Shown in pieces: positions 45,501 to 58,104 of a stretch of 64,000 bases of DNA. Source of the stretch: Clostridia bacterium. Its GTDB lineage: Bacteria > Bacillota > Clostridia > Christensenellales > CAG-917. The stretch lies in NCBI GenBank assembly GCA_017461985.1, contig JAFTSA010000001.1, positions 301 through 64,300 of the forward strand. The letters are read 5' to 3'. Position 1 is the stretch's first letter; each line of letters opens with the position of its first letter. Below the pieces are notes generated by a model. The model saw only the letters and a program-made list of their open reading frames with translations, did not search any database and was not told the DNA's origin. Position numbers and translations under genes: made by a program.

Positions 45501-45894
45501 TGAATAAAAGAGGGCATTTGGTGTATGTAGGGGCGTATATGCACACAATATTCCGTATGTTATAAAATTATACGCATATTTATTCATTCATTCACTTTGC
45601 CAAATTAAAGTGATAAATTAAAAAATGGGCGCTTTTGGCAAAAAGTCATCTTTTCACACCGCTTGAATATATAAAGATATACGCATACACGCGCGAAGAG
45701 GGGAAGGGATGGATTAATTATGCAATTAAAATTGATAAAAAATTAATTTTTTGTTAAAAATCATTTGCCATATCGGCAGTGTGCGTTTATAATGTAGATA
45801 ATTTCATTTGAAATGGAGTAGTATACTCCTTTCAGTGAAATCCAAATTCAGTCCAATAAAAAAGGATAATATTTACTCTATGGAGGTAACAACA

Positions 45895-48519
45895 ATGAAG
45901 CAAAGAAAACTCATCGCTGTTGTAGCAATTGTTTTGGTTCTTGTTCTTTGCGCAAGCGTCTTCGTGGCATGTAATAAAGACGAAGATCCTCGCTACTTGG
46001 CAACAACAAAGACCTACAAGACCTACGCATCATCTTTCGCTACATCATGGAACGTCCTTGACTATGAAACATCTGACCAAGGTGACATGTTCTCATATTC
46101 ATCATCAGGCTTCTATGAATTCGACTATAAGTTTGACGAAAATGGTGACGTTGTTGATGGACAATTCACAATCGTGCCCGTTATGGCATCAGATTATCCC
46201 ACCGACATCACAGCAGAAATCGCAGCAGAACCCGACAACGATTATCTCTTTGACGAAGAAGACACTGGTTATGCATGGTACATCCCTGTCCGCAAAGGCA
46301 TGACATGGGACAATGGCGATCCTATCGAACTCGAAGACTGGATCTACTCCATGAAGGAACAACTTAACCCCTTGTTCATGAACTATCGTGCAGACAGCTA
46401 TTACAGCAGCAGTACAGTCATCCACAATGCAAAGAACTATCTCTACAGTGGCAAGACCATCATGGCAAGTGATGACGGCCTCATCGCCGCAATCAACGGT
46501 GGAGCAGACTTCTACTTCAGCCCCGCAGCATCCAACTATCTCTTTGGACCTTATGGCGGTCTCGCATCAAGCTACGGAATCCTTCCTACATTTGATTCTC
46601 TCTACAATGACTACTTTGTTGTGACCTATGAAGAACAAGCAGCAGCAGCATGGGAAGCAGGCGAAGACCTTGCAGACGGCGCTATCAAGAAGGCAGATTA
46701 CGACACCCTCGAAGCATTTACACAAGCATACGTTGACTACAAGTTCACCGGTGCAGGCGCATCACCACTGCGTGCAGCAATCAGTGAAGTCTACACAATC
46801 ATCGACACACTTACTCCCGTAGAAGAAGGCACAGCAGCAGGTTACTATCTCGTGACAGATGAACTTCTTGCAGCACTCGATGCAGTTTCACAAGGTTTCT
46901 TCGGCGGCAACTATGGTTGGGCAATGTGCAGCTACATCGGTCAATATCCTGAAACCACTTTTGATCAAGTTGGTCTTAGAACAATTGACGATGGCGAACG
47001 CTACGGCCTCATCCTCATCCTCGATGTTCCTTATGTTGACAATGGTTCACACTTCGTTTGGGCATATGACTTCGGCGGCAACTGGCTCGTCAAGCCCGAT
47101 GTCTATGAAGCATGCAAAGTTGCTCCCGCAGACGGAAGCGAACTCTGGACAAGCACATACGGCACATCAATCGAAACATCACCTTCATACGGCCCCTACA
47201 AACTCACCGCATATCAAACCGGTAAGTACTATGAATTCTCAAAGAACGATGCATGGTTTGGTTACAGCATCCCTGAACTTTCAGAAGGCTACTATGAAAC
47301 AGACAAGATCCAATGCTCATTGATGGAAGAATGGGACACCGCATGGATGGCATTCCAAAAGGGTGACCTCGCAGGCATCGGCATGGACGTTAAGATCGCA
47401 GACGAATACAAGACATCAGCACGTGCATACTTCACTCCTGATGACTATGTCAACACCGTCCAAATCCAAACATCAATCGCAGCAGAACCCGATGACGGCA
47501 TCGCAAAAGAAATCCTCCTCAACACCAAGTTCAGAAAGGCACTCTCACTTGCAATTGACCGTGTTGAATATGCAAAACAATGCACCACATCATCACTGGC
47601 AGGCTTTGGTATCTACAACAGCATGCACTACTATGATGTTGAAAACGGTGGCGTCTATCGTAACACCGACATCGCAAAACAAGTTATCTGTGACGTTTAT
47701 GCAGTTGATGTGAACGATTATGATTCACTTGATGATGCATATGCAGCAGTCGTCGGCTACGACCTCGCACTTGCAAAGCAACTCGTTGCTGAAGCAATCG
47801 CAGAAGAAATCGCAGCAGGCACAATCAAGGCAACTGATGTCCTCGACATCACTTACGGCTCATCAGTTGATAGTGAAGCAGCACGTCGTCCTTACAACTT
47901 CTTGAAGGCAGCATGGGAAAAGATCTTTGAAGGCACACAATTTGCAGGCACTGGCTTCGTCTTCAACTATGACGGAACACACGGTGACGCATATGCAAAC
48001 GACTTCAAGGCAGGCCAATACGAAGTCCTCTCAGCAGGTTGGTCCGGCGCAGCATGGGATCCTTTCTACTTCATGATGGCATACATCCACGATGATTACA
48101 GATACGCACAAGGTTGGGATCCTAGAACTGTCAAAGTCACAGTCACCCTCAACAACGTTGACCCTGAAACAGGCGAATGGCTTGGTGAAGGCAATGGCGA
48201 AACCGCATCATTCACAATGGATGCACTCACAATGTGGGAAGAACTTTACGAAGGCACATGGGCAGAAGGCGAATGCAACGTTGAAAACCGCCTCCTCATC
48301 CTCGGCGCACTCGAAAAGACAGTCCTTGAATCATACTGCTCAATCCCCGTTACATACAGCTTTGGTGCAGCACTCCGCAGCTATCAAATCGAAGCATTCA
48401 CCGACACATACAACACATTCATGGGTTGGGGCGGCATCAAGTACTACAGCTACAACTACAACGATGGCGACTGGGCAAGATACGTTGACAGCCAAAACGG
48501 TCAACTCAACTACAAATAA
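45895..48519 (+). CDS. Oversized family-5 (Opp/Dpp-type) ABC substrate-binding lipoprotein (~874 aa)
   Basis: GGAGG RBS. Lipobox VFVACNKDE. SBP_bac_5-like block YIPVRKGMTWDNGDPIELEDWIYSM and YYEFSKNDAWFGY. Very acidic, with strongly biased codons. Confidence 0.8.
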   Translation: MKQRKLIAVVAIVLVLVLCASVFVACNKDEDPRYLATTKTYKTYASSFATSWNVLDYETSDQGDMFSYSSSGFYEFDYKFDENGDVVDGQFTIVPVMASDYPTDITAEIAAEPDNDYLFDEEDTGYAWYIPVRKGMTWDNGDPIELEDWIYSMKEQLNPLFMNYRADSYYSSSTVIHNAKNYLYSGKTIMASDDGLIAAINGGADFYFSPAASNYLFGPYGGLASSYGILPTFDSLYNDYFVVTYEEQAAAAWEAGEDLADGAIKKADYDTLEAFTQAYVDYKFTGAGASPLRAAISEVYTIIDTLTPVEEGTAAGYYLVTDELLAALDAVSQGFFGGNYGWAMCSYIGQYPETTFDQVGLRTIDDGERYGLILILDVPYVDNGSHFVWAYDFGGNWLVKPDVYEACKVAPADGSELWTSTYGTSIETSPSYGPYKLTAYQTGKYYEFSKNDAWFGYSIPELSEGYYETDKIQCSLMEEWDTAWMAFQKGDLAGIGMDVKIADEYKTSARAYFTPDDYVNTVQIQTSIAAEPDDGIAKEILLNTKFRKALSLAIDRVEYAKQCTTSSLAGFGIYNSMHYYDVENGGVYRNTDIAKQVICDVYAVDVNDYDSLDDAYAAVVGYDLALAKQLVAEAIAEEIAAGTIKATDVLDITYGSSVDSEAARRPYNFLKAAWEKIFEGTQFAGTGFVFNYDGTHGDAYANDFKAGQYEVLSAGWSGAAWDPFYFMMAYIHDDYRYAQGWDPRTVKVTVTLNNVDPETGEWLGEGNGETASFTMDALTMWEELYEGTWAEGECNVENRLLILGALEKTVLESYCSIPVTYSFGAALRSYQIEAFTDTYNTFMGWGGIKYYSYNYNDGDWARYVDSQNGQLNYK

Positions 48520-48716: not shown

Positions 48717-49661
48717 ATGATTAAATACACTATAAAAAGATTTTGCTTGATGTTATTTACATTGTTTTCCATTATGACAATCTGCTTCGTGCTGATTAAG
48801 TCACTTCCTTTGGTTGTTGACGTGGGATTGGGCAAAGATGCCGAATTCTTGGAAGGTATCATTGAAGCACGTGGCTATAGAAAGCCGGTTATGGAACAGT
48901 ATGTCACATATCTTGGAAGAATTTTCCAAGGTGACTTTGGTGTTGGTATTAATATGGAAAAGGGAACATATGTCCTCGACAACTTCCTTCAAAGACTTCC
49001 CGCAACCATGATTATCAACATTTACGCAATGTTGATTTCAGTGCCTGTTGGCCTTGGTCTCGGCATCTTTGCAGCACTGAAAAAGAACAAGTGGCAAGAC
49101 CAAGTCATTTCAACCGGCGTTATGATTTTCATCTCAGTGCCCAGCTATGTTTACGCATTCTTGGTGCAATATTTGCTTTGCTTCAAGGGAGGACTTCCTT
49201 TGCAGATGAAAAACGGAACGGACTGGCTAAGTTGGGATATGTTTGTGTCTGTCCTTGCGCCTGTTTTGTCGCTGTCCTTTGGTACAATTGCGGGCTTTGC
49301 GAGATATACAAGAGCAGAGCTCACCGAAGTGCTCACAAGTGACTTTATGCTCCTTGCACGCACAAAGGGTTTGACCAGAGGTCAAGCAACCATCCGTCAC
49401 GCACTCCGCAACGCAATGGTCCCCATCTTCCCCATGATTATTGGTGAATTTGTTGGCATCATTGGTGGCTCACTGATCATTGAACAAATCTTCGGTGTCC
49501 CCGGCGTTGGCAGATTGTATCTTAACTCAATCACAACTTTGGACTATGACTACTTTATGTTCTTGTCCATGTTCTATACAGCGATAGGTCTTGCAGCCGG
49601 TATCCTTGTTGACTTGAGCTATGGCTTTATTGATCCTAGAATTAGAATGGGGGCGAAATAA
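48717..49661 (+). CDS. OppB/DppB-type ABC permease
   Basis: AGGAG RBS. EAA-like region LLARTKGLTRGQATIRHALRNA. Confidence 0.85.
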   Translation: MIKYTIKRFCLMLFTLFSIMTICFVLIKSLPLVVDVGLGKDAEFLEGIIEARGYRKPVMEQYVTYLGRIFQGDFGVGINMEKGTYVLDNFLQRLPATMIINIYAMLISVPVGLGLGIFAALKKNKWQDQVISTGVMIFISVPSYVYAFLVQYLLCFKGGLPLQMKNGTDWLSWDMFVSVLAPVLSLSFGTIAGFARYTRAELTEVLTSDFMLLARTKGLTRGQATIRHALRNAMVPIFPMIIGEFVGIIGGSLIIEQIFGVPGVGRLYLNSITTLDYDYFMFLSMFYTAIGLAAGILVDLSYGFIDPRIRMGAK

Positions 49662-49663
49662 TT

Positions 49664-51304
49664 ATGGAAAGAACTGAATACGTAATCAATAAGTCTTCAT
49701 TTGAATTTGTCAACCTTGACAGCAACATCCATGACAACAAACTTGACACCAAGCCTGTTGGTTATCTTCGTGATGCTCTCCGCCGTTTTGCAAAAAACAA
49801 AGGCTCTGTGGTTGCAGCAGGAATCATTTTGATCCTTGTTTTGTTTGCAATCATCGCACCTATGGCATCAGATTATACTGTTTCTTTCAGAGACCCTTAT
49901 TTTAGAACAACTCTTCCCATCTGCACCGCAGCAAAGAACAATCCCAATATGGATTTCTGGGATGGTTGCTCGGAAGTTGAGCTTGCTCAAACCACATTTG
50001 AACTTTACTACGGCATCAACGTAGAATCAGGTCAAGAAGCGGTCAAGCGCGGAGAATATACCGTCCGTCAAGTCACAAGAGAGTTGAAAAACAACAAGAC
50101 AAGAGTGGACAATTTGTACACCTTCCGACTTAACTCTTACTACAAGGTGGGTGCATACTACAAGAACTTGACCCTTGAAGAATATCGTTCAATTCAAGAA
50201 TATCAAGACAGAACAGGCAAGCAAGTGCTTTATCCCGTTGTTGCAAAGAAAGAACGTGTCACCGCACTTCTTGACCAACTTGATCCCAGCACCGCATCAT
50301 CAAAGACATATATCAACGATGACGGCAACTTCTGGTATAAGGTCAAGATCTCATCAAAAGCACCTTACACTCCCACAGCGGTCTTTGATGAAAATGGCAA
50401 CTACATAAACAACTACGCAGTTGATCCTACCTCAGACAAGGACTTGTACACAAGCAAGATGCTTGTTGAGGGCGACACCAAACAATATCTCTACGGCATC
50501 AAAAACCAAAATGGTTTTGAAGTGAGAATCAACTACTATGAATACTTCTGCTATGTTCACTATATGGCAGGGGACGGCATTGAATCTCCTCACTTCATTT
50601 TCGGCACAAATGGTGACGGACAAGACATCTTCACATGCCTTGCAGCAGGTGCAAGATTCAGCTTCTTGTTGGCAATTCTTGTTTCAATCATCAACCTCAC
50701 ACTGGGCGCAATCTACGGCGCAATCGAAGGTTACTATGGCGGTCTTGCAGATATCTGCATGGAAAGAATTTCAGACATCTTGGGCGCAATCCCTATGATG
50801 ATCGTCCTCACCCTTGTCAGATTGCAACTTTCAAACAAGACAGATATTCCTTCACAGGACATCGCCCTTGTTTCAATGATCATATCCTTCCTGGCAACTG
50901 GTTGGATTGGCATGGCATCAAGCGTCCGTATGCAATTCTACCGTTTCAAGAATCAGGAATATGTCCTCGCTGCACGCACTCTTGGCGCAAGAGACAGACG
51001 CATCATCTTGAAACATATCTTGCCCAACAGCTTGGGAACACTCATCACAGGATCAGTCCTTGTCATTCCTGGTGTTATGTTCAGTGAATCATCATTGGCA
51101 TACCTGGGCATTTTGGACCTTTCAACCTCAACGTCAACCTCAATCGGTGTGTTGCTGGCAAACGGCCAACCCTACTTGACAACATATCCTCACGTCATTT
51201 TGTTCCCCGCATTGTTCATCTCATTGTTGATGCTGTCATTCAACCTGTTCGGCAATGGTCTTAGAGACGCATTCAACCCGCAACTTAGAGGATCGGAGGG
51301 CTAA
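49664..51304 (+). CDS. OppC/DppC-type ABC permease with a ~250-aa extracytoplasmic insertion after TM1
   Basis: N-terminal RRFAKNKGSVVAAGIILILV, a ~250-aa hydrophilic segment, then the conserved core (AARTLGARDRRIILKHILPN). 546 aa, against roughly 300 as I recall for this family. Confidence 0.8.
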   Translation: MERTEYVINKSSFEFVNLDSNIHDNKLDTKPVGYLRDALRRFAKNKGSVVAAGIILILVLFAIIAPMASDYTVSFRDPYFRTTLPICTAAKNNPNMDFWDGCSEVELAQTTFELYYGINVESGQEAVKRGEYTVRQVTRELKNNKTRVDNLYTFRLNSYYKVGAYYKNLTLEEYRSIQEYQDRTGKQVLYPVVAKKERVTALLDQLDPSTASSKTYINDDGNFWYKVKISSKAPYTPTAVFDENGNYINNYAVDPTSDKDLYTSKMLVEGDTKQYLYGIKNQNGFEVRINYYEYFCYVHYMAGDGIESPHFIFGTNGDGQDIFTCLAAGARFSFLLAILVSIINLTLGAIYGAIEGYYGGLADICMERISDILGAIPMMIVLTLVRLQLSNKTDIPSQDIALVSMIISFLATGWIGMASSVRMQFYRFKNQEYVLAARTLGARDRRIILKHILPNSLGTLITGSVLVIPGVMFSESSLAYLGILDLSTSTSTSIGVLLANGQPYLTTYPHVILFPALFISLLMLSFNLFGNGLRDAFNPQLRGSEG

Positions 51305-51307
51305 ACT

Positions 51308-53491
51308 ATGGAAAAGAAACTTGAAGTCAAAAACCTTAGAATATCTTTCCGTACTGACGCAGGCAAAGTTCAAGCTGTCCGTGGCATAGACTTTGACCTC
51401 TACAAGGGTGAAACCCTTGCAATCGTTGGCGAATCCGGTTCAGGAAAGTCAGTCACAAACAAAGCTATCATCGGCATTTCAGCACCCAACGCAATCATTG
51501 AAAGTGGTGAAATCCTTTATGATGGTATGGACCTTCTTCAAATCAGTGAAGACGATTTCCACAAACTTCGTGGCGACAAGATTGCAATGATCTTCCAAGA
51601 TCCTTTGTCAGCACTGGACCCCATCAACCGCATCGGTATGCAACTTACCGAAGCAATGATCCTTAAAAACCGCGCAAACAGACGCGAATCAAGAAGGCTG
51701 TTCAACCGCACAATTAAGAATCTTTGCACAGCAATGAACGGTGCAATGGGCGTTGACGCAAACAGCGAACAAGGCAAGATCAACAAGCAAAAAATCACCG
51801 ACTTTAACACCTTTGAGAAACTCCATCTCAAGCTTGAAGGCGCATACAACGAAGCACACACCAATGCAAGCCTTGCAATCGAAGATATTGAAGACCTCCT
51901 TTTCCACATTGAGAAGAAGGCTGTCAGTGACTTCGGCGCAGAAAAGAGCAACATCATCCGTGCAGCAAAGAAGTCTGTTCACGAATATGTCTGTTCAGAC
52001 AAAGTTGTTGCACTGGCAGAGGCATTTAAGGAAGCATCAAAGGGTTGCACAAGAGCAAAGGACTATACCCCTTGTGTCGAACCTTTGAAGGCACTCCTTG
52101 AAGAATTGAAGGAAGGAGCAGCCAAGCTGTCCCCCAACTACTTTGCATTGGCATACTTCCTCACCTTTGGCAAGGAAGAACTTCCCAAACTGCCCACTGA
52201 TGAGCTCAATGTCTATCTCCGTAGATACCTTGACGACAACTTCATGCTCGCTTTCATCGAAGATGAAAAGAAGGGTTTGATTTATTCACGTGAATGTTCA
52301 CTGGACAACAGAGCAGAAGCTATCGCAACCATCCAATCATTGAGAGATGTGTTCACAGCAGAAACCCTGGACAAGAAGGCATGCAAAGCAGCTGCAAAAC
52401 AAATGACAGATGCAGTTGCAAAGGCAATCGACAAGCTCGCTCTTGTTAAGGATTCAACAGCATACACCTTTAAGGCAAGTCTTAATCGCGCAATCAACAC
52501 ATATTTCACAGCAGGTCCTTCAAACGCAAAAGAAGAAAAGCGTTTCAACAAGGAAAAGAAGAAATATGACAAGATCATTGCAAAGGGCAAGACACCTGAT
52601 TACTCAGTTATCCCTGCAAGAATCATCGACATCGACATCGCAAAGGAAAATATCCTTCATGTCATCGACAAGGTCACAGCTGCATTTAAGACTGCAATTG
52701 ACAATCGTGACAACTACGATGCAGACAAAGAAGCAGTGGCAATGATTGACTTCCTCAAAGAAAAGGCACAAGCAGTTGCATACCGCGTCACAAAGCGTAT
52801 CGCAAAGAGCAAGGCCCTGAAACTTATGGAAGAAGTGGGCATTGCAGAACCTAAGAAGAGATATCGTCAATATCCTTTCCAATTCTCAGGTGGTATGCGT
52901 CAACGTATCGTCATCGCAATTGCACTTGCTGCAAACCCTGACATCCTCATCTGTGACGAACCTACAACCGCTCTTGACGTGACAATTCAAGCACAAATCC
53001 TTGAACTCATCAACAAGATCAAGAGAGAAAGAAATTTGTCCATCATCTTCATCACCCACGACCTCGGCGTTGTGGCAAACATGGCTGACCGTATTGCAGT
53101 TATGTACGCAGGCAAGATTGTTGAAACTGGCACATCAGAAGATGTCTTCTATTCACCTGCACACCCCTATACATGGGCACTTCTTTCATCAATGCCTGAC
53201 CTTGACACCAATGAGAAGTTGGAAGCCATCCCCGGCACACCTCCCAATATGATCTATCCTCCCAAGGGAGATGCATTTGCAGCACGTAATAAGTATGCAA
53301 TGAAGATCGATTTCGAGTTGCAACCTCCCATGTTCAAGATCAGCGATACACACTCTGCTGCAACTTGGCTTTTGCACCCCGATGCACCCAAAGTGGAATT
53401 GCCCAAGGCAATCTCTGCACGTATCGAACGCATGAAGACAAAGAATAACATCGGAGCAGAACCCCAAAATACTGAAGAAGGAGAAAACTGA
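51308..53491 (+). CDS. OppD-type ABC ATPase with a ~365-aa insertion between the Q-loop and the ABC signature
   Basis: GESGSGKS (aa 41-48) and MIFQDP (aa 94-99). FSGGMRQR appears only at aa 526, then ILICDEPTTALD. C-terminal oligopeptide-ATPase tail PAHPYTWALL. Confidence 0.85.
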   Translation: MEKKLEVKNLRISFRTDAGKVQAVRGIDFDLYKGETLAIVGESGSGKSVTNKAIIGISAPNAIIESGEILYDGMDLLQISEDDFHKLRGDKIAMIFQDPLSALDPINRIGMQLTEAMILKNRANRRESRRLFNRTIKNLCTAMNGAMGVDANSEQGKINKQKITDFNTFEKLHLKLEGAYNEAHTNASLAIEDIEDLLFHIEKKAVSDFGAEKSNIIRAAKKSVHEYVCSDKVVALAEAFKEASKGCTRAKDYTPCVEPLKALLEELKEGAAKLSPNYFALAYFLTFGKEELPKLPTDELNVYLRRYLDDNFMLAFIEDEKKGLIYSRECSLDNRAEAIATIQSLRDVFTAETLDKKACKAAAKQMTDAVAKAIDKLALVKDSTAYTFKASLNRAINTYFTAGPSNAKEEKRFNKEKKKYDKIIAKGKTPDYSVIPARIIDIDIAKENILHVIDKVTAAFKTAIDNRDNYDADKEAVAMIDFLKEKAQAVAYRVTKRIAKSKALKLMEEVGIAEPKKRYRQYPFQFSGGMRQRIVIAIALAANPDILICDEPTTALDVTIQAQILELINKIKRERNLSIIFITHDLGVVANMADRIAVMYAGKIVETGTSEDVFYSPAHPYTWALLSSMPDLDTNEKLEAIPGTPPNMIYPPKGDAFAARNKYAMKIDFELQPPMFKISDTHSAATWLLHPDAPKVELPKAISARIERMKTKNNIGAEPQNTEEGEN

Positions 53492-53493
53492 TT

Positions 53494-54792
53494 ATGAGTG
53501 AAATTTTGAACGAACAAGAAGTCCTTCTCCAAGAAGAAACAGTTGAAGCAACCCCCGAAAAGCGCGAAATCAGTGATGAAGTGCTTTTGAAGGTTGAAAA
53601 TCTTTGCCAATTCTTCAAGCTTGGTCAATCCACATTGAAGGCAGTCAACAACGTCAGTTTTGAGGTCAAAAAGGGCGAAGTTTTCGGTTTGGTTGGCGAA
53701 TCCGGTTGTGGCAAAACCACAACAGGCAGAAGCATTATCAAACTCTACAACTGCACATCAGGCAATGTCTATTTTGACGGCAAGAGAATTTGCGCAGGCA
53801 CTGGTTCATACAAAGACACCAAAAAGGCAGCCTTCAAAGAAGTTGTTGATGCATACAAGTCAAAAGATGCAGACAAAGCAACAAAGAAGGCCGCTCTTGA
53901 CAAATATCTTGCAGTAGCCAAAGAAGAAAACGCAAAAATTAAAGCCGCAAAACACGACCAAAAGAAGTGTGACAAGGACTACGCAAAGCAAAAGATTGCA
54001 GAAGTTAAGGCTGAATATCTCCCCAAACTCAAAGAGATGGACAAGAAATCTCCTGAGTATAAGGAAACTCTCAAAAACTTCTTGAAGGAATATCGTCTTG
54101 CAAGCAAGGAACGTTTGGTCACCAAGATCCAAATGGTCTTCCAAGATCCTATCGCATCCCTTGACCCCCGTATGACCGTCAAAGAAATCATCGCAGAAGG
54201 TCTTATCATCAAGGGTATCCGTGACAAGAAAGTCATCGAAGAAAAGGTCTATGAAGTCCTTGAAAAGGTCGGCCTTGTCAGAGAACACGCAGGCAGATAT
54301 CCTCACGAATTCTCCGGCGGTCAAAGACAACGTATCGGTGTGGCACGTTCAATCATCATGAACCCCAAGCTCATCATCGCAGACGAACCTGTCAGTGCTC
54401 TTGACGTGTCAATTCAAGCACAGGTCATCAACCTCTTGAACGACCTTCGTCATGAACTTGGCCTCACAATTCTCTTCATCGCCCACGACCTTTCAGTTGT
54501 CAAATACTTCTCAGATCGTATCGCAGTTATGTATTTCGGCAATATGGTTGAATTGACCACCTCAGAAGAGCTGTTCAAGCATCCTCTGCATCCTTATACA
54601 AGATCATTGTTGTCAGCAATTCCTCTTCCTGACCCTATTTATGAAAAGAAGAGAGAACGTATTGTCTACAATCCTCTTGCTGATCACGACTACTCAGTGG
54701 ACAAGCCTACACTTCGCGAAGTGGCTCCTGGACACTTTGTTTCTTGCAACGACGCAGAGTTCAAGAAATATCAAGAGATTCTCGCAAAATAA
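53494..54792 (+). CDS. OppF-type ABC ATPase with a ~90-aa lysine-rich insertion before the Q-loop
   Basis: GESGCGKTT (aa 68-76), FDGKRI (aa ~94), then a K/A/E-rich stretch up to MVFQDP (aa 214-219). FSGGQRQR, and a PLHPYTRSLL tail. Confidence 0.85.
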   Translation: MSEILNEQEVLLQEETVEATPEKREISDEVLLKVENLCQFFKLGQSTLKAVNNVSFEVKKGEVFGLVGESGCGKTTTGRSIIKLYNCTSGNVYFDGKRICAGTGSYKDTKKAAFKEVVDAYKSKDADKATKKAALDKYLAVAKEENAKIKAAKHDQKKCDKDYAKQKIAEVKAEYLPKLKEMDKKSPEYKETLKNFLKEYRLASKERLVTKIQMVFQDPIASLDPRMTVKEIIAEGLIIKGIRDKKVIEEKVYEVLEKVGLVREHAGRYPHEFSGGQRQRIGVARSIIMNPKLIIADEPVSALDVSIQAQVINLLNDLRHELGLTILFIAHDLSVVKYFSDRIAVMYFGNMVELTTSEELFKHPLHPYTRSLLSAIPLPDPIYEKKRERIVYNPLADHDYSVDKPTLREVAPGHFVSCNDAEFKKYQEILAK

Positions 54793-54794
54793 CA

Positions 54795-55211
54795 GTGGAC
54801 AAAGCAAAGAAAACACTTATAACATATTTGATTACCATCGCAGTTGCCGCCGTCTTGATGATTGGCGTCAGCGCGTTGCGTGGGGCATTTTCAGTGGCGC
54901 TCACCCAAAAGGAAGCAATACAATGTGCCTGTGATGCATTCTTTGTTGTTGGCATGGTATATCTGTGTGCAGGAGGCGTTATGTGGGCTTCCAGAAAGGG
55001 CACCTTCGACGGATTGGGATACTCCTTTTCATTGTTGAAACAACGCTATACCAAAAACAAAAGAAATTGGCAAAACGAAGAATCCTTTTATGACTACAAA
55101 GAACGTAAGGCAGAAAAGAAAAAGGAAAAGAGAAGCAACCATTTGGTGATCATCGGCGGAATCTTTGTTATCGTTGCAGCAATACTTCTTGTGGTATTCT
55201 ACTATGCATAA
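54795..55211 (+). CDS. Small membrane protein (DUF3899-like), start uncertain
   Basis: Two or three hydrophobic spans flank a basic loop KRNWQNEESFYDYKERKAEKKKEKR. The start is either GTG 54795 or the tracked ATG 54744, which overlaps the ATPase gene. Confidence 0.55.
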   Translation: MDKAKKTLITYLITIAVAAVLMIGVSALRGAFSVALTQKEAIQCACDAFFVVGMVYLCAGGVMWASRKGTFDGLGYSFSLLKQRYTKNKRNWQNEESFYDYKERKAEKKKEKRSNHLVIIGGIFVIVAAILLVVFYYA

Positions 55212-55257: not shown

Positions 55258-55423
55258 GTTCGTAATCCGCGAGCAAAAACACATTAAAATCTTGAAACAA
55301 GGGAAATAATCAACAAAAGAAAAAGATTTGTCATTTATTTGCACAAATTATCACACAAATTTGCTTTAGCGCTTTACTTTCTTAAAGAAAAAGTGTAAAA
55401 TATAGGTATAAATGAGGCAACCT

Positions 55424-55750
55424 ATGAATCTTTTTGAAATCTTTGCAAAACTTAATACCGCTGAAGAAGTAGAAGCATTTTTTGACGATCTCTGCACCTA
55501 TGCAGAAATCGAAAAAATGGAGCAACGTGTAGAAGCCGCACAAATGTTCCTTGACGGCGCAACCTACAATCAAGTCATACAAAAAACAGAAATATCATCT
55601 GCAACATTGTCCCGTGTGTCACGTTGTATACGTCACGGAAGCGGCGGCTATAGCGATATTCTCCGCAGACTTGTGGCAGAGCAAAGAGCGGCCGCAGAGG
55701 GCGCAGAAGAGGCCACTGAACCTGCAACAGAAGAAGGCGCAGAGGAATAA
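55424..55750 (+). CDS. YerC/YecD (TrpR-like) family protein with an acidic Ala/Glu tail
   Basis: GAGG 6 nt before ATG 55424. LCTYAEIEKMEQRVEAAQMFLDGATYNQVIQKTEISSATLSRVSRCIRHGSGGY. Confidence 0.75.
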   Translation: MNLFEIFAKLNTAEEVEAFFDDLCTYAEIEKMEQRVEAAQMFLDGATYNQVIQKTEISSATLSRVSRCIRHGSGGYSDILRRLVAEQRAAAEGAEEATEPATEEGAEE

Positions 55751-55827
55751 TCATAAAACAACAGAATACGACAAAATCCACCGTGCAACCGAAAGGATGT
55801 GCGGTTTTTTTGTTGCAAAATTTTGGT

Positions 55828-58104
55828 ATGCAATCAGGTTTGAGAAAGAAAAAAAGACAACGGGCATACCTTGTCAGCCCCTACGTAGCACTCAGGTATA
55901 CGGCGGAGTTTCTGTTGATGATATTGTTTTTTTCAACAGGTAAGACTGGCTTTGCCCTTGCGCTAGGATTGTTTGCAGGGCTAACTTTTGCACGGCAAAA
56001 TCTCATCATCACAGCTCCTATGTTTGTGGTGGCAGGCATGGTGTTTTTGGACAGTTGGTGGACTATGATGTTTCTTGCAGTTCCACCTGTTGTTTTTGCC
56101 GTTTTATATTTCCTGTACACCCGTTTCAAAAAGAACGTGCCTGTGTGGGCGGTGGTGTTTTGCACCTTGATTTCCGCCCTTGCTGAAAGCGTCACAAGGC
56201 TATTGCTTTTTGGTGATGGACTGCGATTTGCACTGACTGTTGTGCTGTCAGTTGTTTTTGCTTTATGTTGCACAAACGCCTGTTATGCAGTGCTAATCAG
56301 AGGTATAAAGTGCCGATTTACGCTGGATGAACATATTTGCACTGCAATCTTTGCGGTGGCATTTGCATACGCTTGCCACGGTGTCAGTGTGTATGGTTTC
56401 AACCTATATTTCCTCATTTTGCCCTTTGTGATAATGTGCTTTGCCTACGGCGGAAGTGGTCGAAATGCCATACTTGTCAGTGTATTGTTTTCCTTGGGCG
56501 CAGTCCTAAATAGCTTTAATTTTTCTTTGGTCGGTGTCAGTGTGTTGCTGGGGTTTATAGTGACTGCGCTCACCTCATTTCATAGGTTTATTCCTGCCGT
56601 GTCTATGGCGGTTTTGATGATAGGATTTTGGCTTTTGAAGATAGGTGACCTTGGCTATCAAGGGGCGGTGATGACGCTCATTGGTGGATTTGCCTACGGC
56701 TTTTTGCCGAGAGATATAAGGAGCAAATTCCCTCGCCCATCAAGGGATAAAGCGGAGTCACTTTGCGCCATGGTCAATCGTGACAGGACAAATCTTTCAA
56801 ATAGATTGTTGTCTGTCAGTGACGTGTTTTTGGATCTTGCCGAGCAACTTGACGATGAGGACAATGACAAAAATCCATACACCGCGAAACGGCTGTCAAA
56901 GGAGATTGCCAAAAACTATTGTGGCAAGTGCAGTGAGCGGCAAAAGTGTTTTTCCGCTCTTGGTGGTGACACCTCGTCTGTCCTTGAAGGAATGTGCGAA
57001 GCCACGCTCACAAGAAACAAAGCAACCATACTTGACGTGCCCAACTTTATTTCGTCTAGGTGCATCAAAACCCACAACCTCATCTCAGTCATCAACAACG
57101 CCGGCGAAGCATACAAATCAAAGATTGCAGGAAGCCGTGAGCTTTTCAATTGCAAGAAGACAATGTCCGCCCAGTTTGCTGGTATGTCGTTGGTGCTTGA
57201 ATCTCTGTCAAAGGAGTGTGGCAAAAACCTCACCTTTGGAGGTGACGTGGAAGAGCGCATTGAAAACGAGCTGATGAAACACAACATCGTTGCCACCGAA
57301 ACTGTTGTGGCAGGAAAGGGCGCATCGTCACGGGTTGCCCTCACTGTCCGTGACGTAGATGTTGAAAAGACCATGCTGACAAAAACTGTATCCAACTGTC
57401 TTCAAAACCCCTACGTCATTGAAAAAGTCACAGACCGCGGAGAGGAAAAGACTGTACATTTGGTGACAGCGCCTGTCTTTCAAGTGGCATATGGCGTTGC
57501 GGAAAAACGCCGTGACGGCGAAGAGGTGTCGGGGGATAGCATGGCAGTGCTTTCACCCTCTATGAACAAGCGGATATTTGCCTTGTCAGATGGCATGGGC
57601 AGTGGTGAAAAGGCCTCTATTGCCTCAAAAAAATCTTTAAGCATGATTGAGAATTTCTATCGCGCAGGCTTTGAGGAGGGGTTGATATTGTCCCTTGTCA
57701 ATCAACTTTTGTGCCTTGTCAGTGAGGATAATTTTTCCGCCCTTGATATTGCAGTGGTTGACCTTGCCCTCGGCGGTGTTGACGTCATCAAAATGGGGGC
57801 AGCCTCAGGGTTTATCTTGCGAAAATCCGCAGTGGAAGTGTTGCGTGCAGATACCCCACCCCTTGGCATAGTGGACAGAATTGCGCCCACAACCGCAAGA
57901 CACCAACTGTATGACGGGGATATGCTCGTCCTTGCCACGGACGGAGTGGTTGATGCTCTCGGTGAAAACGGTGTTGTGGACGTTGTGGACGAGGCTCACA
58001 CCACAAATCCTCAAACCTTGGCGGACAAACTTCTTCTTGGGGCGCTATCCCGTGGGGCGGAAGACGACTGCACGGTTTTGGTATTGCGCATCCTTGCAAT
58101 ATGA
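55828..58104 (+). CDS. spoIIE: Stage II sporulation protein E (membrane PP2C phosphatase)
   Basis: About 10 N-terminal TM spans. C-terminal PP2C motifs SGDSMAV, LSDGMGSGEKA, ATDGVVDA and DDCTVLVLRI. Confidence 0.85.
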   Translation: MQSGLRKKKRQRAYLVSPYVALRYTAEFLLMILFFSTGKTGFALALGLFAGLTFARQNLIITAPMFVVAGMVFLDSWWTMMFLAVPPVVFAVLYFLYTRFKKNVPVWAVVFCTLISALAESVTRLLLFGDGLRFALTVVLSVVFALCCTNACYAVLIRGIKCRFTLDEHICTAIFAVAFAYACHGVSVYGFNLYFLILPFVIMCFAYGGSGRNAILVSVLFSLGAVLNSFNFSLVGVSVLLGFIVTALTSFHRFIPAVSMAVLMIGFWLLKIGDLGYQGAVMTLIGGFAYGFLPRDIRSKFPRPSRDKAESLCAMVNRDRTNLSNRLLSVSDVFLDLAEQLDDEDNDKNPYTAKRLSKEIAKNYCGKCSERQKCFSALGGDTSSVLEGMCEATLTRNKATILDVPNFISSRCIKTHNLISVINNAGEAYKSKIAGSRELFNCKKTMSAQFAGMSLVLESLSKECGKNLTFGGDVEERIENELMKHNIVATETVVAGKGASSRVALTVRDVDVEKTMLTKTVSNCLQNPYVIEKVTDRGEEKTVHLVTAPVFQVAYGVAEKRRDGEEVSGDSMAVLSPSMNKRIFALSDGMGSGEKASIASKKSLSMIENFYRAGFEEGLILSLVNQLLCLVSEDNFSALDIAVVDLALGGVDVIKMGAASGFILRKSAVEVLRADTPPLGIVDRIAPTTARHQLYDGDMLVLATDGVVDALGENGVVDVVDEAHTTNPQTLADKLLLGALSRGAEDDCTVLVLRILAI

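What the first reader, a model, noticed from the sequence alone, without database searches (positions are those of the whole stretch)
51680..52780. About 365-residue insertion inside the nucleotide-binding domain of the OppD-type ATPase
Walker A (aa 41-48) and the Q-loop MIFQDP (aa 94-99) are normal. The ABC signature FSGGMRQR appears only at aa 526. In Opp/Dpp ATPases as I recall them, the gap is about 60 residues.

The inserted segment is Lys/Ala/Glu-rich, probably helical, with several Cys. It lies where the helical subdomain contacts the permease coupling helices. Enlarged OppD/OppF are known from Mollicutes. Here the insertion occurs in a genome that encodes spoIIE, and the partner ATPase has a different, smaller insertion.

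The insert could be a regulatory or scaffolding domain of unknown function.
Basis: partly seen in the sequence, partly recalled or inferred. Interest (0 to 1): 0.58.

Follow-up and report, generated by a model that had tools for sequence, protein, structure and literature searches.

The report
Giant helical insert in OppD ATPase
The ATPase of a peptide importer from an uncultured gut Clostridia bacterium carries a real, conserved 375-residue all-helical domain with no match among solved structures, inserted next to the point where the ATPase touches the membrane subunit; it is the largest form of an insertion hot spot for which I found no published description, and its function is untested.

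Summary
OppD (51308-53491, 727 aa) is one ORF with Walker A at aa 41-48, Q-loop at 94-99 and signature at 526-533. Residues 118-492 (nt 51659-52783) replace a roughly 5-residue loop of canonical OppD.

It is not an artefact. The same uninterrupted architecture occurs in every locus long enough to span all three motifs, among 24 independently assembled gut Clostridia species. The insert is under purifying selection (dN/dS 0.10-0.16).

AlphaFold2 gives a confident all-alpha domain (pLDDT 95, pTM 0.83). It has no Pfam, NCBIfam or PDB match.

The insert consists of two modules that each occur alone in related OppDs. It is the largest form of an insertion hot spot (0 to about 400 residues) in an Opp clade that lacks the C-terminal Fe-S cysteines.

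The Mollicute comparison holds only in part. The Mycoplasma mycoides-type OppD is enlarged at a different site, between Walker A and the Q-loop, which is where this window's OppF is enlarged.

Across 33 operons OppD grows only after the Q-loop helix and OppF only before the Q-loop, and the two sizes co-vary. By standard head-to-tail geometry both inserts flank one ATP site.

I propose, as an inference, a paired accessory module that tunes that site or stabilises the assembly. This is a new variant of a known kind, with function unproven.

The parts
45808..48519 (+). Giant substrate-binding lipoprotein (SBP_bac_5, 903 aa from the TTG start). The likely true start is the ATG at 45895, giving MKQRK...FVAC with a lipobox.
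   Evidence: Pfam PF00496 E=4.9e-26. Sequence read. Homologous operons have SBPs of 700-947 aa.
48717..49661 (+). OppB permease (314 aa)
   Evidence: PF00528 and PF19300
49664..51304 (+). OppC permease (546 aa) with about 200-250 extra residues between the N-terminal TM helix and the permease core
   Evidence: OppC_N matches aa 34-79 and BPD_transp_1 matches aa 349-542. NCBIfam Opp3C aligns aa 305-542 to profile positions 103-328.
51308..53491 (+). OppD ATPase, 727 aa, one continuous ORF
   Evidence: The exact sequence is present on 2 public contigs, the longest 394,633 bp.
51428..51451 (+). OppD Walker A (aa 41-48)
51587..51604 (+). OppD Q-loop MIFQDP (aa 94-99)
51626..51658 (+). Helix after the Q-loop (aa 107-117). 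It carries E115, the equivalent of DppD E114, which forms a salt bridge with DppB at the coupling-helix-mediated contact. The helix runs on without a break into the insert.
   Evidence: Alignment offset query 5-129 = DppD 4-128. PMC12136057. AF2 helix 106-146.
51659..52192 (+). Insert, N module (aa 118-295): an Arg/Lys-rich outgoing stalk helix followed by a helical sub-bundle. This module occurs alone in the 538-aa and 614-aa OppD classes.
   Evidence: An HMM of the insert matches 538-aa relatives at HMM positions 1-162 and P0184 at positions 2-217. AF2 helices listed.
52193..52783 (+). Insert, C module (aa 296-492). It holds the most conserved motifs (YLDDNFML.FI, KDS.AYTF, GKTPDY) and the return helix IDFLKEKAQAVAY. 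This module occurs alone in OppD classes of about 512-611 aa, mostly 564-599 aa.
   Evidence: HMM positions ~180-374 match relatives of 512-611 aa, with E as low as 4.6e-52. Invariant columns.
52883..52906 (+). OppD ABC signature FSGGMRQR (aa 526-533)
53120..53305 (+). OppD C-terminal oligo_HPY region (aa 605-666) without the four Cys of the [4Fe-4S] site
   Evidence: PF08352. No Cys after the PYT motif. The Cys ligands in E. coli DppD/F are given in PMC12136057.
53494..54792 (+). OppF ATPase (432 aa)
   Evidence: PF00005 and PF08352. NCBI accession MBQ9107243.1, 'MAG: Clostridia bacterium'.
53785..54108 (+). OppF insert (about aa 98-205), rich in Lys/Ala/Glu/Asp, lying between Walker A and the Q-loop. 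Length varies among relatives. Conserved core motif AK.DQK.CDK.Y.
   Evidence: Alignment of 21 OppF sequences. Walker A to Q-loop distance is 146 here, against 49 in an insert-less relative.
54795..55211 (+). Small DUF3899 membrane protein encoded directly after oppF, conserved across this Opp clade. It may be a sixth component. The ORF tool starts it at the TTG at 54744; the GTG at 54795 directly follows the oppF stop codon.
   Evidence: PF13038 E=1.2e-18. The same gene follows oppF in L025, L029, L030, L031, L034 and L037.

Best explanation
SHOWN. The segment is a genuine, inherited domain of about 44 kDa. It is all alpha-helical and made of two modules. It is inserted into the loop of OppD's alpha-helical subdomain that follows the helix carrying E115. 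It leaves and re-enters the nucleotide-binding domain through two long helices that continue the domain's own helices. It is the largest form of a length-variable insertion hot spot (0 to about 400 residues) in an Opp clade that lacks the C-terminal Fe-S cysteines. In that clade OppD expands only at this site, and its partner OppF expands only between Walker A and the Q-loop.

INFERRED MECHANISM.
1. The helical subdomain rotates by about 20 degrees against the RecA core during the transport cycle, so the insert must swing with it as a rigid outrigger.
2. In the canonical head-to-tail dimer, OppF's Walker A and beta-subdomain face OppD's signature and helical subdomain. The two inserts should therefore lie around the same composite ATP site. 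In E. coli Dpp, one ATP analogue is bound, to DppF, in the inward-facing state.
3. I propose that the OppD and OppF inserts form a paired cytoplasmic accessory module that tunes closure or opening of that site, or that stabilises the OppB-OppD-OppF assembly in a clade lacking the Fe-S clusters that other Opp/Dpp systems need for stability.

No step of the mechanism has been tested.
For: Real and conserved:
- One ORF with the same motif spacing in every related locus that spans all three motifs (22 of 24 species).
- The insert is 34-78% identical among these, against 81-96% for the core C-terminal half.
- dN/dS is 0.10-0.155 in the insert.
- 49 near-invariant positions, mostly aromatic or aliphatic.

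Folded:
- AF2 on aa 106-497 with a 46-sequence alignment gives pLDDT 95.2 and pTM 0.83. It predicts 13 helical segments, including helices of 40, 49, 53 and 38 residues.
- In the full-length model, helix 106-146 is continuous from the nucleotide-binding domain into the insert.

Position:
- E115 is equivalent to DppD E114, which forms a salt bridge with DppB K243 (PMC12136057).
- The same paper reports the ~20 degree rotation of the helical subdomain and a single ATP analogue bound to DppF.

Modular hot spot:
- Among the 119 closest core relatives, 49 have no insert (Q-loop to signature 61-68) and 70 have distances of 138-326.
- The N module and the C module each occur alone.

Complementarity and co-variation:
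- In 33 operons the OppD Walker A to Q-loop distance is always 53, and the OppF Q-loop to signature distance is always 59.
- The insert sizes correlate. Spearman rho is 0.60 (p=2e-4) on raw data and 0.86 (p=8e-4) on 11 class-collapsed points.
- An operon in the same core clade with no OppD insert also has no OppF insert (L033).

Loss of Fe-S cysteines across the clade: 114 of 119 relatives have no Cys after the PYT motif.

Precedent: the helical subdomain is a regulatory surface in another transporter, where MlaB binds the helical subdomain of MlaF (PMC7367683).
Against: - No model or structure of the complex exists. I had no coordinates, so the proximity of the two inserts rests on textbook dimer geometry.
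- The size correlation is not corrected for phylogeny.
- There are exceptions. L021 keeps the full OppD insert with only about +28 residues in OppF. L025 has about +45 residues in OppF and no OppD insert.
- Close relatives work with no insert, or with either module alone, so the insert is not needed for basic transport.
- Insert-less members of the clade also lack the Fe-S cysteines, so the insert cannot be the general replacement for the cluster.
- The insert evolves about 10 times faster in dN than the core.
Confidence: 0.4

Rival explanations
1. The insert is a docking platform. It recruits a cytoplasmic partner to the importer, such as a peptidase, a regulator or another transporter complex, and does not itself tune the ATP site.
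For: - It is a large, well-folded helical domain with conserved loops (GKTPDY.V.P, KDS.AYTF, PNYF) that could form a binding surface.
- Its fast, lineage-specific evolution and modular gain and loss fit changeable protein-protein interactions.
- In some related loci peptidase genes lie near the operon: M3 in L034, M32 in L029, M29 and TldD/PmbA in L032.
Against: - No conserved neighbouring gene other than DUF3899 accompanies the operon.
- DUF3899 is present whatever the insert class.
- This reading does not explain why OppF expands in step at the complementary site.
Confidence: 0.2
2. The insert is a sensor or anchor at the membrane surface. This basic helical domain lies under the inner leaflet and binds anionic lipids, coupling transporter activity to membrane state, in the way ionic-strength gating works in OpuA.
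For: - The insert is basic while the core is not. The insert has pI 8.7 and net charge +6; the core has pI 6.1. Of 28 full-length homologues, 24 have pI above 8.
- The outgoing stalk 'LKNRANRRESRR' has net charge +5, with K120 and R129 invariant.
- The stalk emerges 3 residues after a residue that contacts the membrane subunit.
Against: - A few homologues are neutral or acidic: P0072 has pI 4.96, P0037 6.6 and P0009 6.8.
- No amphipathic membrane-binding helix was identified.
- The orientation relative to the membrane could not be checked without coordinates.
Confidence: 0.15
3. The insert is a tolerated expansion segment. It is a permissive surface loop that has accreted helical material with no specific function beyond folding.
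For: - Insert length ranges from 0 to about 400 residues among proteins whose cores are 70-84% identical.
- Classes are interleaved on the core tree.
- Many classes are low-complexity Lys/Glu-rich helices.
- Insert-less relatives exist in similar operons.
Against: - dN/dS is 0.10-0.155 over 375 residues, and the full length is retained at only 34-40% identity.
- 49 near-invariant positions include polar ones.
- The globular fold is predicted with high confidence.
- OppF expands in step.
Confidence: 0.15
4. The insert is an artefact: misassembly, a frameshift, a fusion of two genes, or a mobile element or intein inserted in the gene.
For: - Many database homologues are truncated or start inside the insert.
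- One homologue, P0028, is chimeric.
Against: - The ORF is continuous with the same architecture in every related locus that spans all three motifs (22 of 24 independent assemblies).
- The exact protein is found on 2 contigs.
- The truncated NCBI protein P0007 is an annotation start-site artefact, because the upstream frame reads MEKKLEVKNL...GESGSGKS without a stop.
- The two halves align to a single nucleotide-binding domain.
- There is no intein or Hint domain and no other Pfam hit, and the fold is all-alpha.
- GC content is uniform across the region.
Confidence: 0.01

Closest known systems
Canonical OppD/DppD ATPases of Opp/Dpp type I ABC importers (E. coli OppD 8z21_C, DppD 8z1v_C; M. tuberculosis OppD 8j5q_D)
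   Same: - All nucleotide-binding motifs are present in the same order.
- The oligo_HPY C-terminal region is present.
- The operon has two permeases, a second ATPase and a cluster-C binding protein.
- The core aligns end to end with E=3.9e-118.
   Different: - 375 residues are inserted after the helix carrying E115 (Q-loop to signature 432 instead of 61).
- The four Cys of the C-terminal [4Fe-4S] site, which E. coli Dpp and M. tuberculosis Opp need for stability, are absent (PMC12136057).
- The binding protein and OppC are much larger.
Mollicute-type OppD and OppF (NCBIfam NF043079 MMSYN1_0167, 561 positions; NF043078 MMSYN1_0168, 649 positions)
   Same: - These are the best-scoring NCBIfam models for this OppD (452 bits) and OppF (410 bits), so the cores are the nearest named relatives.
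- Both are enlarged ATPases.
- The OppF insert lies at the same site, between Walker A and the Q-loop.
   Different: - Scores fall below the curated cut-offs of 740 and 800 bits.
- The Mollicute OppD is enlarged between Walker A and the Q-loop, not after the Q-loop helix.
- The insert alone has no detectable similarity to these models.
Sister OppD classes of the same clade, with shorter inserts at the same site (uncultured Clostridia/Oscillospiraceae 538-614 aa; Treponema sp. 448 aa; Tenericutes bacterium 475 aa; Candidatus Izimaplasma 482 aa)
   Same: - The insertion point is the same and the cores are 70-84% identical.
- The 538-aa class shares the N module, and classes of about 512-611 aa share the C module.
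- Operon type is the same, including the DUF3899 gene.
   Different: - They carry one module or neither.
- The Treponema, Tenericutes and Izimaplasma inserts are Lys/Glu-rich, coiled-coil-like segments with no similarity to this insert.
- None of these has been studied, as far as the literature searches show.
SMC/Rad50/RecN-type ABC ATPases, and the helical 'arm' of ABCF proteins such as EttA (analogy recalled from general knowledge)
   Same: The topology is the same. A helical element is inserted in the nucleotide-binding domain between the Q-loop and the signature motif, so the Walker A half and the signature/Walker B half are far apart in sequence.
   Different: - Those are soluble proteins acting on DNA or ribosomes.
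- SMC and Rad50 inserts are two-stranded antiparallel coiled coils with a hinge or hook.
- Here AF2 predicts a multi-helix bundle on a transporter subunit.
- The Pfam SMC_N match is below threshold (21.9 against 40 bits).
MlaB bound to MlaF (a STAS-domain regulator binding the helical subdomain of an ABC ATPase; PMC7367683)
   Same: An accessory element sits on the helical subdomain, far from the ATP site, and is proposed to regulate ATPase stability and function through helical-subdomain movement.
   Different: - MlaB is a separate alpha/beta STAS protein acting in trans.
- Here the element is a covalently inserted all-alpha domain.
- No sequence or fold relationship was found.

Membership tests
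Opp/Dpp-type ABC importer ATPase (OppD) | Walker A, Q-loop, signature, Walker B, D-loop and H-loop in canonical order within one polypeptide; Pfam ABC_tran above the gathering score | tested here: met
   Motifs at aa 41-48, 94-99, 526-533, 546-552, 554-557 and 582-587. PF00005 scores 96.1 bits against a cut-off of 25.
Opp/Dpp-type ABC importer ATPase (OppD) | C-terminal oligo_HPY region (PF08352) | tested here: met
   52.7 bits against a cut-off of 27.1, at aa 605-666
Opp/Dpp-type ABC importer ATPase (OppD) | Operon with two BPD_transp_1 permeases (one with OppC_N), a second ATPase and an SBP_bac_5 binding protein | tested here: met
   The same gene order is found in the related loci.
Opp/Dpp-type ABC importer ATPase (OppD) | Four-Cys [4Fe-4S] site in the C-terminal domain (present in E. 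coli DppD/DppF and M. tuberculosis OppD; not universal) | tested here: not met
   OppD has no Cys and OppF has one Cys after the PYT motif. 114 of 119 clade members have none.
Opp/Dpp-type ABC importer ATPase (OppD) | ATP-driven peptide import | not testable with these tools
The substrate of the 903-aa binding protein is unknown.
Mollicute-type OppD (NCBIfam NF043079, equivalog) | Score at or above the curated cut-off (740 bits) | tested here: not met
   452 bits
Mollicute-type OppD (NCBIfam NF043079, equivalog) | Extra region at the same position in the nucleotide-binding domain | tested here: not met
   OppD aa 5-73 match profile positions 2-70, aa 82-129 match 298-345, and aa 493-710 match 338-556. 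The model's extra ~225 positions therefore precede the Q-loop.
SMC/Rad50-type ABC ATPases | SMC_N profile above the gathering score; a two-stranded antiparallel coiled coil between the two halves of the nucleotide-binding domain | tested here: not met
   SMC_N scores 21.9 bits against a cut-off of 40. AF2 predicts 13 helical segments with several short ones and conserved loops, not a long two-stranded coil.
Known regulatory domains of ABC importer ATPases (MalK/TOBE-type, MetN C2/NIL, CBS) | C-terminal appendage matching the corresponding Pfam family | tested here: not met
   The domain is internal, not C-terminal. It has no Pfam hit better than E=0.16 and no NCBIfam hit better than E=0.077.
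Intein or mobile-element insertion | Hint/intein or endonuclease domain, splice-junction residues, patchy distribution unrelated to host phylogeny | tested here: not met
   No such Pfam match. The fold is all-alpha. The window's near relatives with the two-module insert group together on the core tree. Composition is uniform across the region.

The most novel reading that the evidence does not exclude
The OppD insert (after the Q-loop helix) and the OppF insert (before the Q-loop) together form a previously unrecognised kind of cytoplasmic control module on a type I ABC importer. The module would be an inter-subunit clamp or lever on one of the two ATP sites, built by insertion into the nucleotide-binding domains themselves rather than by the C-terminal regulatory domains known so far. 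Its helical fold would have no solved counterpart.
Probability: 0.2. Interest if true: 0.7.

Novelty: new variant of a known kind. Interest (0 to 1): 0.5.

Why it matters
The known ways of regulating or stabilising ABC importers from the cytoplasm use C-terminal appendages (MalK, MetN, ModC, CBS domains, or the Fe-S domain of Opp/Dpp) or separate proteins (MlaB, EIIAGlc).

Here a domain of about 44 kDa is inserted directly into the mobile helical subdomain, three residues from a residue that contacts the membrane subunit. The partner ATPase grows in step at the complementary site.

If the two inserts act together, this would be a new way to make the two ATP sites of a heterodimeric importer unequal, or to hold the complex together without Fe-S clusters. 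That could matter for anaerobic gut bacteria.

In practical terms, the domain is a candidate new family, with 257 clusters at 50% identity and no Pfam model. Public annotation mishandles these genes by truncating starts and omitting OppF. The variable-length series, from 0 to about 400 residues on nearly identical cores, is a natural deletion series for experiments.

Tried and rejected

2. Sequence libraries on the insert alone. Pfam gave a best E of 0.16. NCBIfam gave nothing at E<=0.01 and only an unrelated regulator at E=0.077. A profile search of PDB sequences gave 0 hits at E<=10.

3. Homology to the Mollicute inserts. This was rejected for OppD because the site differs and no similarity was found.

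4. Internal duplication (N module against C module), and homology of either module to the OppF insert. hhalign probabilities were below 1%.

5. A Cys-based metal site. This was rejected because the Cys residues are not conserved.

6. A split gene, suggested by database proteins that start at 'MILKN'. This was rejected as an annotation artefact.

7. The insert as a replacement for the lost Fe-S cluster. This was weakened because insert-less clade members also lack the Cys residues.

8. Literature. Four searches found no paper describing this insertion.

9. Model coordinates are not exposed by the tools. Shape, the distance between the insert's termini and surface patches could not be measured.
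Full report
**Anatomy of the locus**

The finding lies in a five-gene opp-type operon on the + strand:
- a 903-aa SBP_bac_5 lipoprotein (45808-48519)
- OppB (48717-49661)
- a 546-aa OppC (49664-51304)
- OppD (51308-53491, 727 aa)
- OppF (53494-54792, 432 aa)

These are followed by a small DUF3899 membrane protein, a Trp-repressor-family gene and SpoIIE. GC content is even across the region.

**Checking the observation**

OppD has Walker A at aa 41-48, the Q-loop MIFQDP at 94-99, the signature FSGGMRQR at 526-533, Walker B at 546-552 and the H-loop at 582-587.

Against solved structures, aa 3-117 align to M. tuberculosis OppD residues 3-116, and aa 493-685 align to residues 122-316. The two halves therefore belong to one nucleotide-binding domain. 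Residues 118-492 (nt 51659-52783) replace a loop of about five residues.

In 46 insert-less close relatives the distance from Q-loop to signature is 61, and in three more it is 65-68; here it is 432.

**Artefact or real?**

A search with the insert alone found 36 proteins among 5.8 billion, all OppD-like proteins of uncultured Clostridia.

A scan of one genome per species found the insert in 24 species, all MAGs from animal guts, at 34-78% identity over its whole length. In every locus long enough to span all three motifs (22 of 24), one ORF runs from Walker A through the Q-loop and the insert to the signature, with the same spacing.

The exact window protein occurs on two public contigs. The partner OppF is NCBI MBQ9107243.1, from a 'Clostridia bacterium' MAG.

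Between the window and its five nearest relatives, the insert has dN/dS of 0.10-0.155, against 0.04-0.08 for the core. Forty-nine insert positions are at least 95% conserved across 24 sequences, and most are aromatic or aliphatic.

Several database homologues start inside the insert. For one of them (P0007, NCBI) the upstream frame reads MEKKLEVKNL...GESGSGKS... without a stop, so the truncation is an annotation error. Misassembly, frameshift and gene fusion are excluded.

**Structure**

AlphaFold2 on the full protein gave a confident insert but a poor core, because most aligned homologues lack the N-terminal half.

A second run covered aa 106-497 with 46 homologues. It gave mean pLDDT 95.2 and pTM 0.83. 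The domain is all-alpha, with helices of 40, 49, 53 and 38 residues plus shorter ones and several conserved loops.

In the full-length model the helix that follows the Q-loop (from aa 106) runs on without a break to aa 146. The last insert helix (aa 472-491) leads into the helix that precedes the signature motif.

**Where it sits**

The window OppD aligns to E. coli DppD with an offset of one residue (query 5-129 = DppD 4-128). E115 therefore corresponds to DppD E114.

In the cryo-EM structure of DppBCDF, that residue forms a salt bridge with DppB K243 in the DppB-DppD contact, which is mediated by the coupling helix (PMC12136057). The insert begins three residues later.

The same paper reports three further points:
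- the helical subdomain rotates by about 20 degrees between the inward- and outward-facing states
- in the inward-facing state a single ATP analogue is bound, to DppF
- both ATPases carry a C-terminal [4Fe-4S] cluster needed for complex stability

**Wider family**

A profile of the insert, scored against 1.84 billion representative proteins, found 257 hits at E<=0.001. In every full-length hit the domain begins at residue 117-125 of an OppD-type ATPase. The domain therefore exists only in this context.

I then searched with the insert deleted. The 119 closest core relatives are 70-84% identical on the core. All have a Walker A to Q-loop distance of 53, but their Q-loop to signature distances vary: 61-68 in 49 proteins and 138-326 in 70.

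An HMM of the window insert sorts these relatives into classes:
- The 538-aa class and one 614-aa protein carry the N module (HMM positions 1-162 and 2-217).
- Classes of about 512-611 aa, mostly 564-599 aa, carry the start of the stalk helix plus the C module (HMM positions about 180-374).
- The classes of 424-497 aa have inserts that do not match; most are Lys/Glu-rich and coiled-coil-like. These include Treponema, a 'Tenericutes bacterium' and Izimaplasma. A few 555-586-aa proteins also do not match.

The window's 375-residue insert is thus the two-module maximum of an insertion hot spot. The two modules are unrelated to each other and to the OppF insert.

On a neighbour-joining tree of the cores the classes are interleaved. 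This suggests repeated gain and loss, although such a conserved core gives little resolution.

**The Mollicute comparison**

The best NCBIfam models for OppD and OppF are the Mycoplasma mycoides models NF043079 (561 positions) and NF043078 (649 positions). Both scores are below the curated cut-offs.

I mapped pieces of OppD onto NF043079. Residues 5-73 match profile positions 2-70, residues 82-129 (the Q-loop and the helix after it) match positions 298-345, and residues 493-710 match positions 338-556. The Mollicute OppD is therefore enlarged between Walker A and the Q-loop, not where this OppD is enlarged.

The window's OppF is enlarged at that Mollicute site.

**A pattern that bears on mechanism**

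In 33 operons (the window, the related loci and eight sister-class operons), the OppD Walker A to Q-loop distance is always 53. The OppF Q-loop to signature distance is always 59. OppD grows only after the Q-loop helix, and OppF grows only before the Q-loop.

The two insert sizes correlate. Spearman rho is 0.60 (p=2e-4) on all operons and 0.86 (p=8e-4) on 11 class-collapsed points. These values are not corrected for phylogeny.

One operon of the same core clade has no OppD insert and no OppF insert (L033). Another has +237 residues in OppD and +164 in OppF (L036). Exceptions exist: L021 has the full OppD insert and only about +28 in OppF, and L025 has no OppD insert and about +45 in OppF.

By the established head-to-tail geometry of ABC dimers, the Walker A and beta-subdomain of one subunit face the signature and helical subdomain of the other. 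On that basis both inserts should lie around the composite site formed by OppF's Walker A and OppD's signature.

This leads to my preferred, unproven mechanism. The two inserts form a paired accessory module, rigidly tied to the moving helical subdomain, that tunes that ATP site or stabilises the assembly.

**Rival explanations**

- A docking platform for a cytoplasmic partner.
- A membrane-surface sensor. The insert has pI 8.7 against 6.1 for the core, is basic in 24 of 28 homologues, and has an Arg-rich stalk.
- A tolerated expansion segment.

Loss of the Fe-S cysteines is clade-wide (114 of 119 relatives) and includes insert-less members. The insert is therefore not the general substitute for the cluster.

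**Verdict**

The feature is real and well folded, and in four literature searches I found no description of it. It is a new variant of a known kind: an OppD ATPase with a candidate new inserted domain family at a previously unremarked hot spot. It is not a new kind of system. Function and mechanism remain to be tested.

Noticed in passing
window 54795-55211 (the ORF tool starts it at the TTG at 54744): A DUF3899 small membrane protein (PF13038, E=1.2e-18) is encoded directly after oppF. The same gene follows oppF in related operons of every OppD insert class examined (L025, L029, L030, L031, L034, L037). It may be an unrecognised sixth component of this Opp clade.
   Followed up: partly
window 53120-53488 (OppD C-terminal region) and 54550-54789 (OppF C-terminal region): The four Cys that bind the [4Fe-4S] cluster in E. 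coli DppD/DppF and M. tuberculosis OppD are absent. In those systems the cluster is needed for complex stability. Here 114 of the 119 closest OppD relatives have no Cys in this region.
   Followed up: partly
window 49664-51304 (OppC) and 45808-48519 (binding protein): OppC has about 200-250 extra residues between its first TM helix (OppC_N, aa 34-79) and the permease core (aa 305/349 onward). This stretch is presumably extracytoplasmic. The binding protein has 903 aa, where the matched profile models span about 500-560 positions. Both enlargements are found across nearly all of the clade and do not depend on the ATPase inserts. One operon with no ATPase inserts (L033) has a 385-aa OppC.
   Followed up: partly
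L032 5653-7851 and 7852-9306 (NCBI GCA_034094095.1): Public annotation mishandles these genes. OppD is annotated from an internal Met (616 aa, lacking Walker A) although the ORF is continuous from MEKKLEVKNL. The 484-aa OppF ORF next to it is not called at all. Many database entries for this family are truncated in a similar way.
   Followed up: yes
window 51308-53491 compared with L001-L004 and L006: Synonymous divergence is about 3 times lower in the conserved core (dS 0.38-0.71) than in the insert (dS 1.2-2.0) of the same gene. Possible causes are codon constraint, saturation in the insert, or recombination homogenising the core. This was not resolved.
   Followed up: no
NCBIfam NF043079 and NF043078 compared with window OppD and OppF: In the Mycoplasma mycoides models, both OppD and OppF are enlarged between Walker A and the Q-loop. 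The OppF model also has about 30 extra positions after the Q-loop helix (aa 237 maps to profile 429, aa 240 to 461).
   Followed up: partly
P0028 (517 aa, ENA), a homologue: This protein is chimeric. It begins as OppD with the start of the insert, then switches to an unrelated sequence carrying PF18376 and PF22700. It is probably an assembly chimera.
   Followed up: no
window 55412-55750 and 55783-58104: A Trp-repressor-family gene (PF01371, E=4.4e-22) and SpoIIE (PF07228 and PF19732) lie downstream. An ORF of SpoIIE-like size (758-824 aa) lies at the same downstream position in the nearest relatives (L001, L002, L004), but not in more distant ones.
   Followed up: partly
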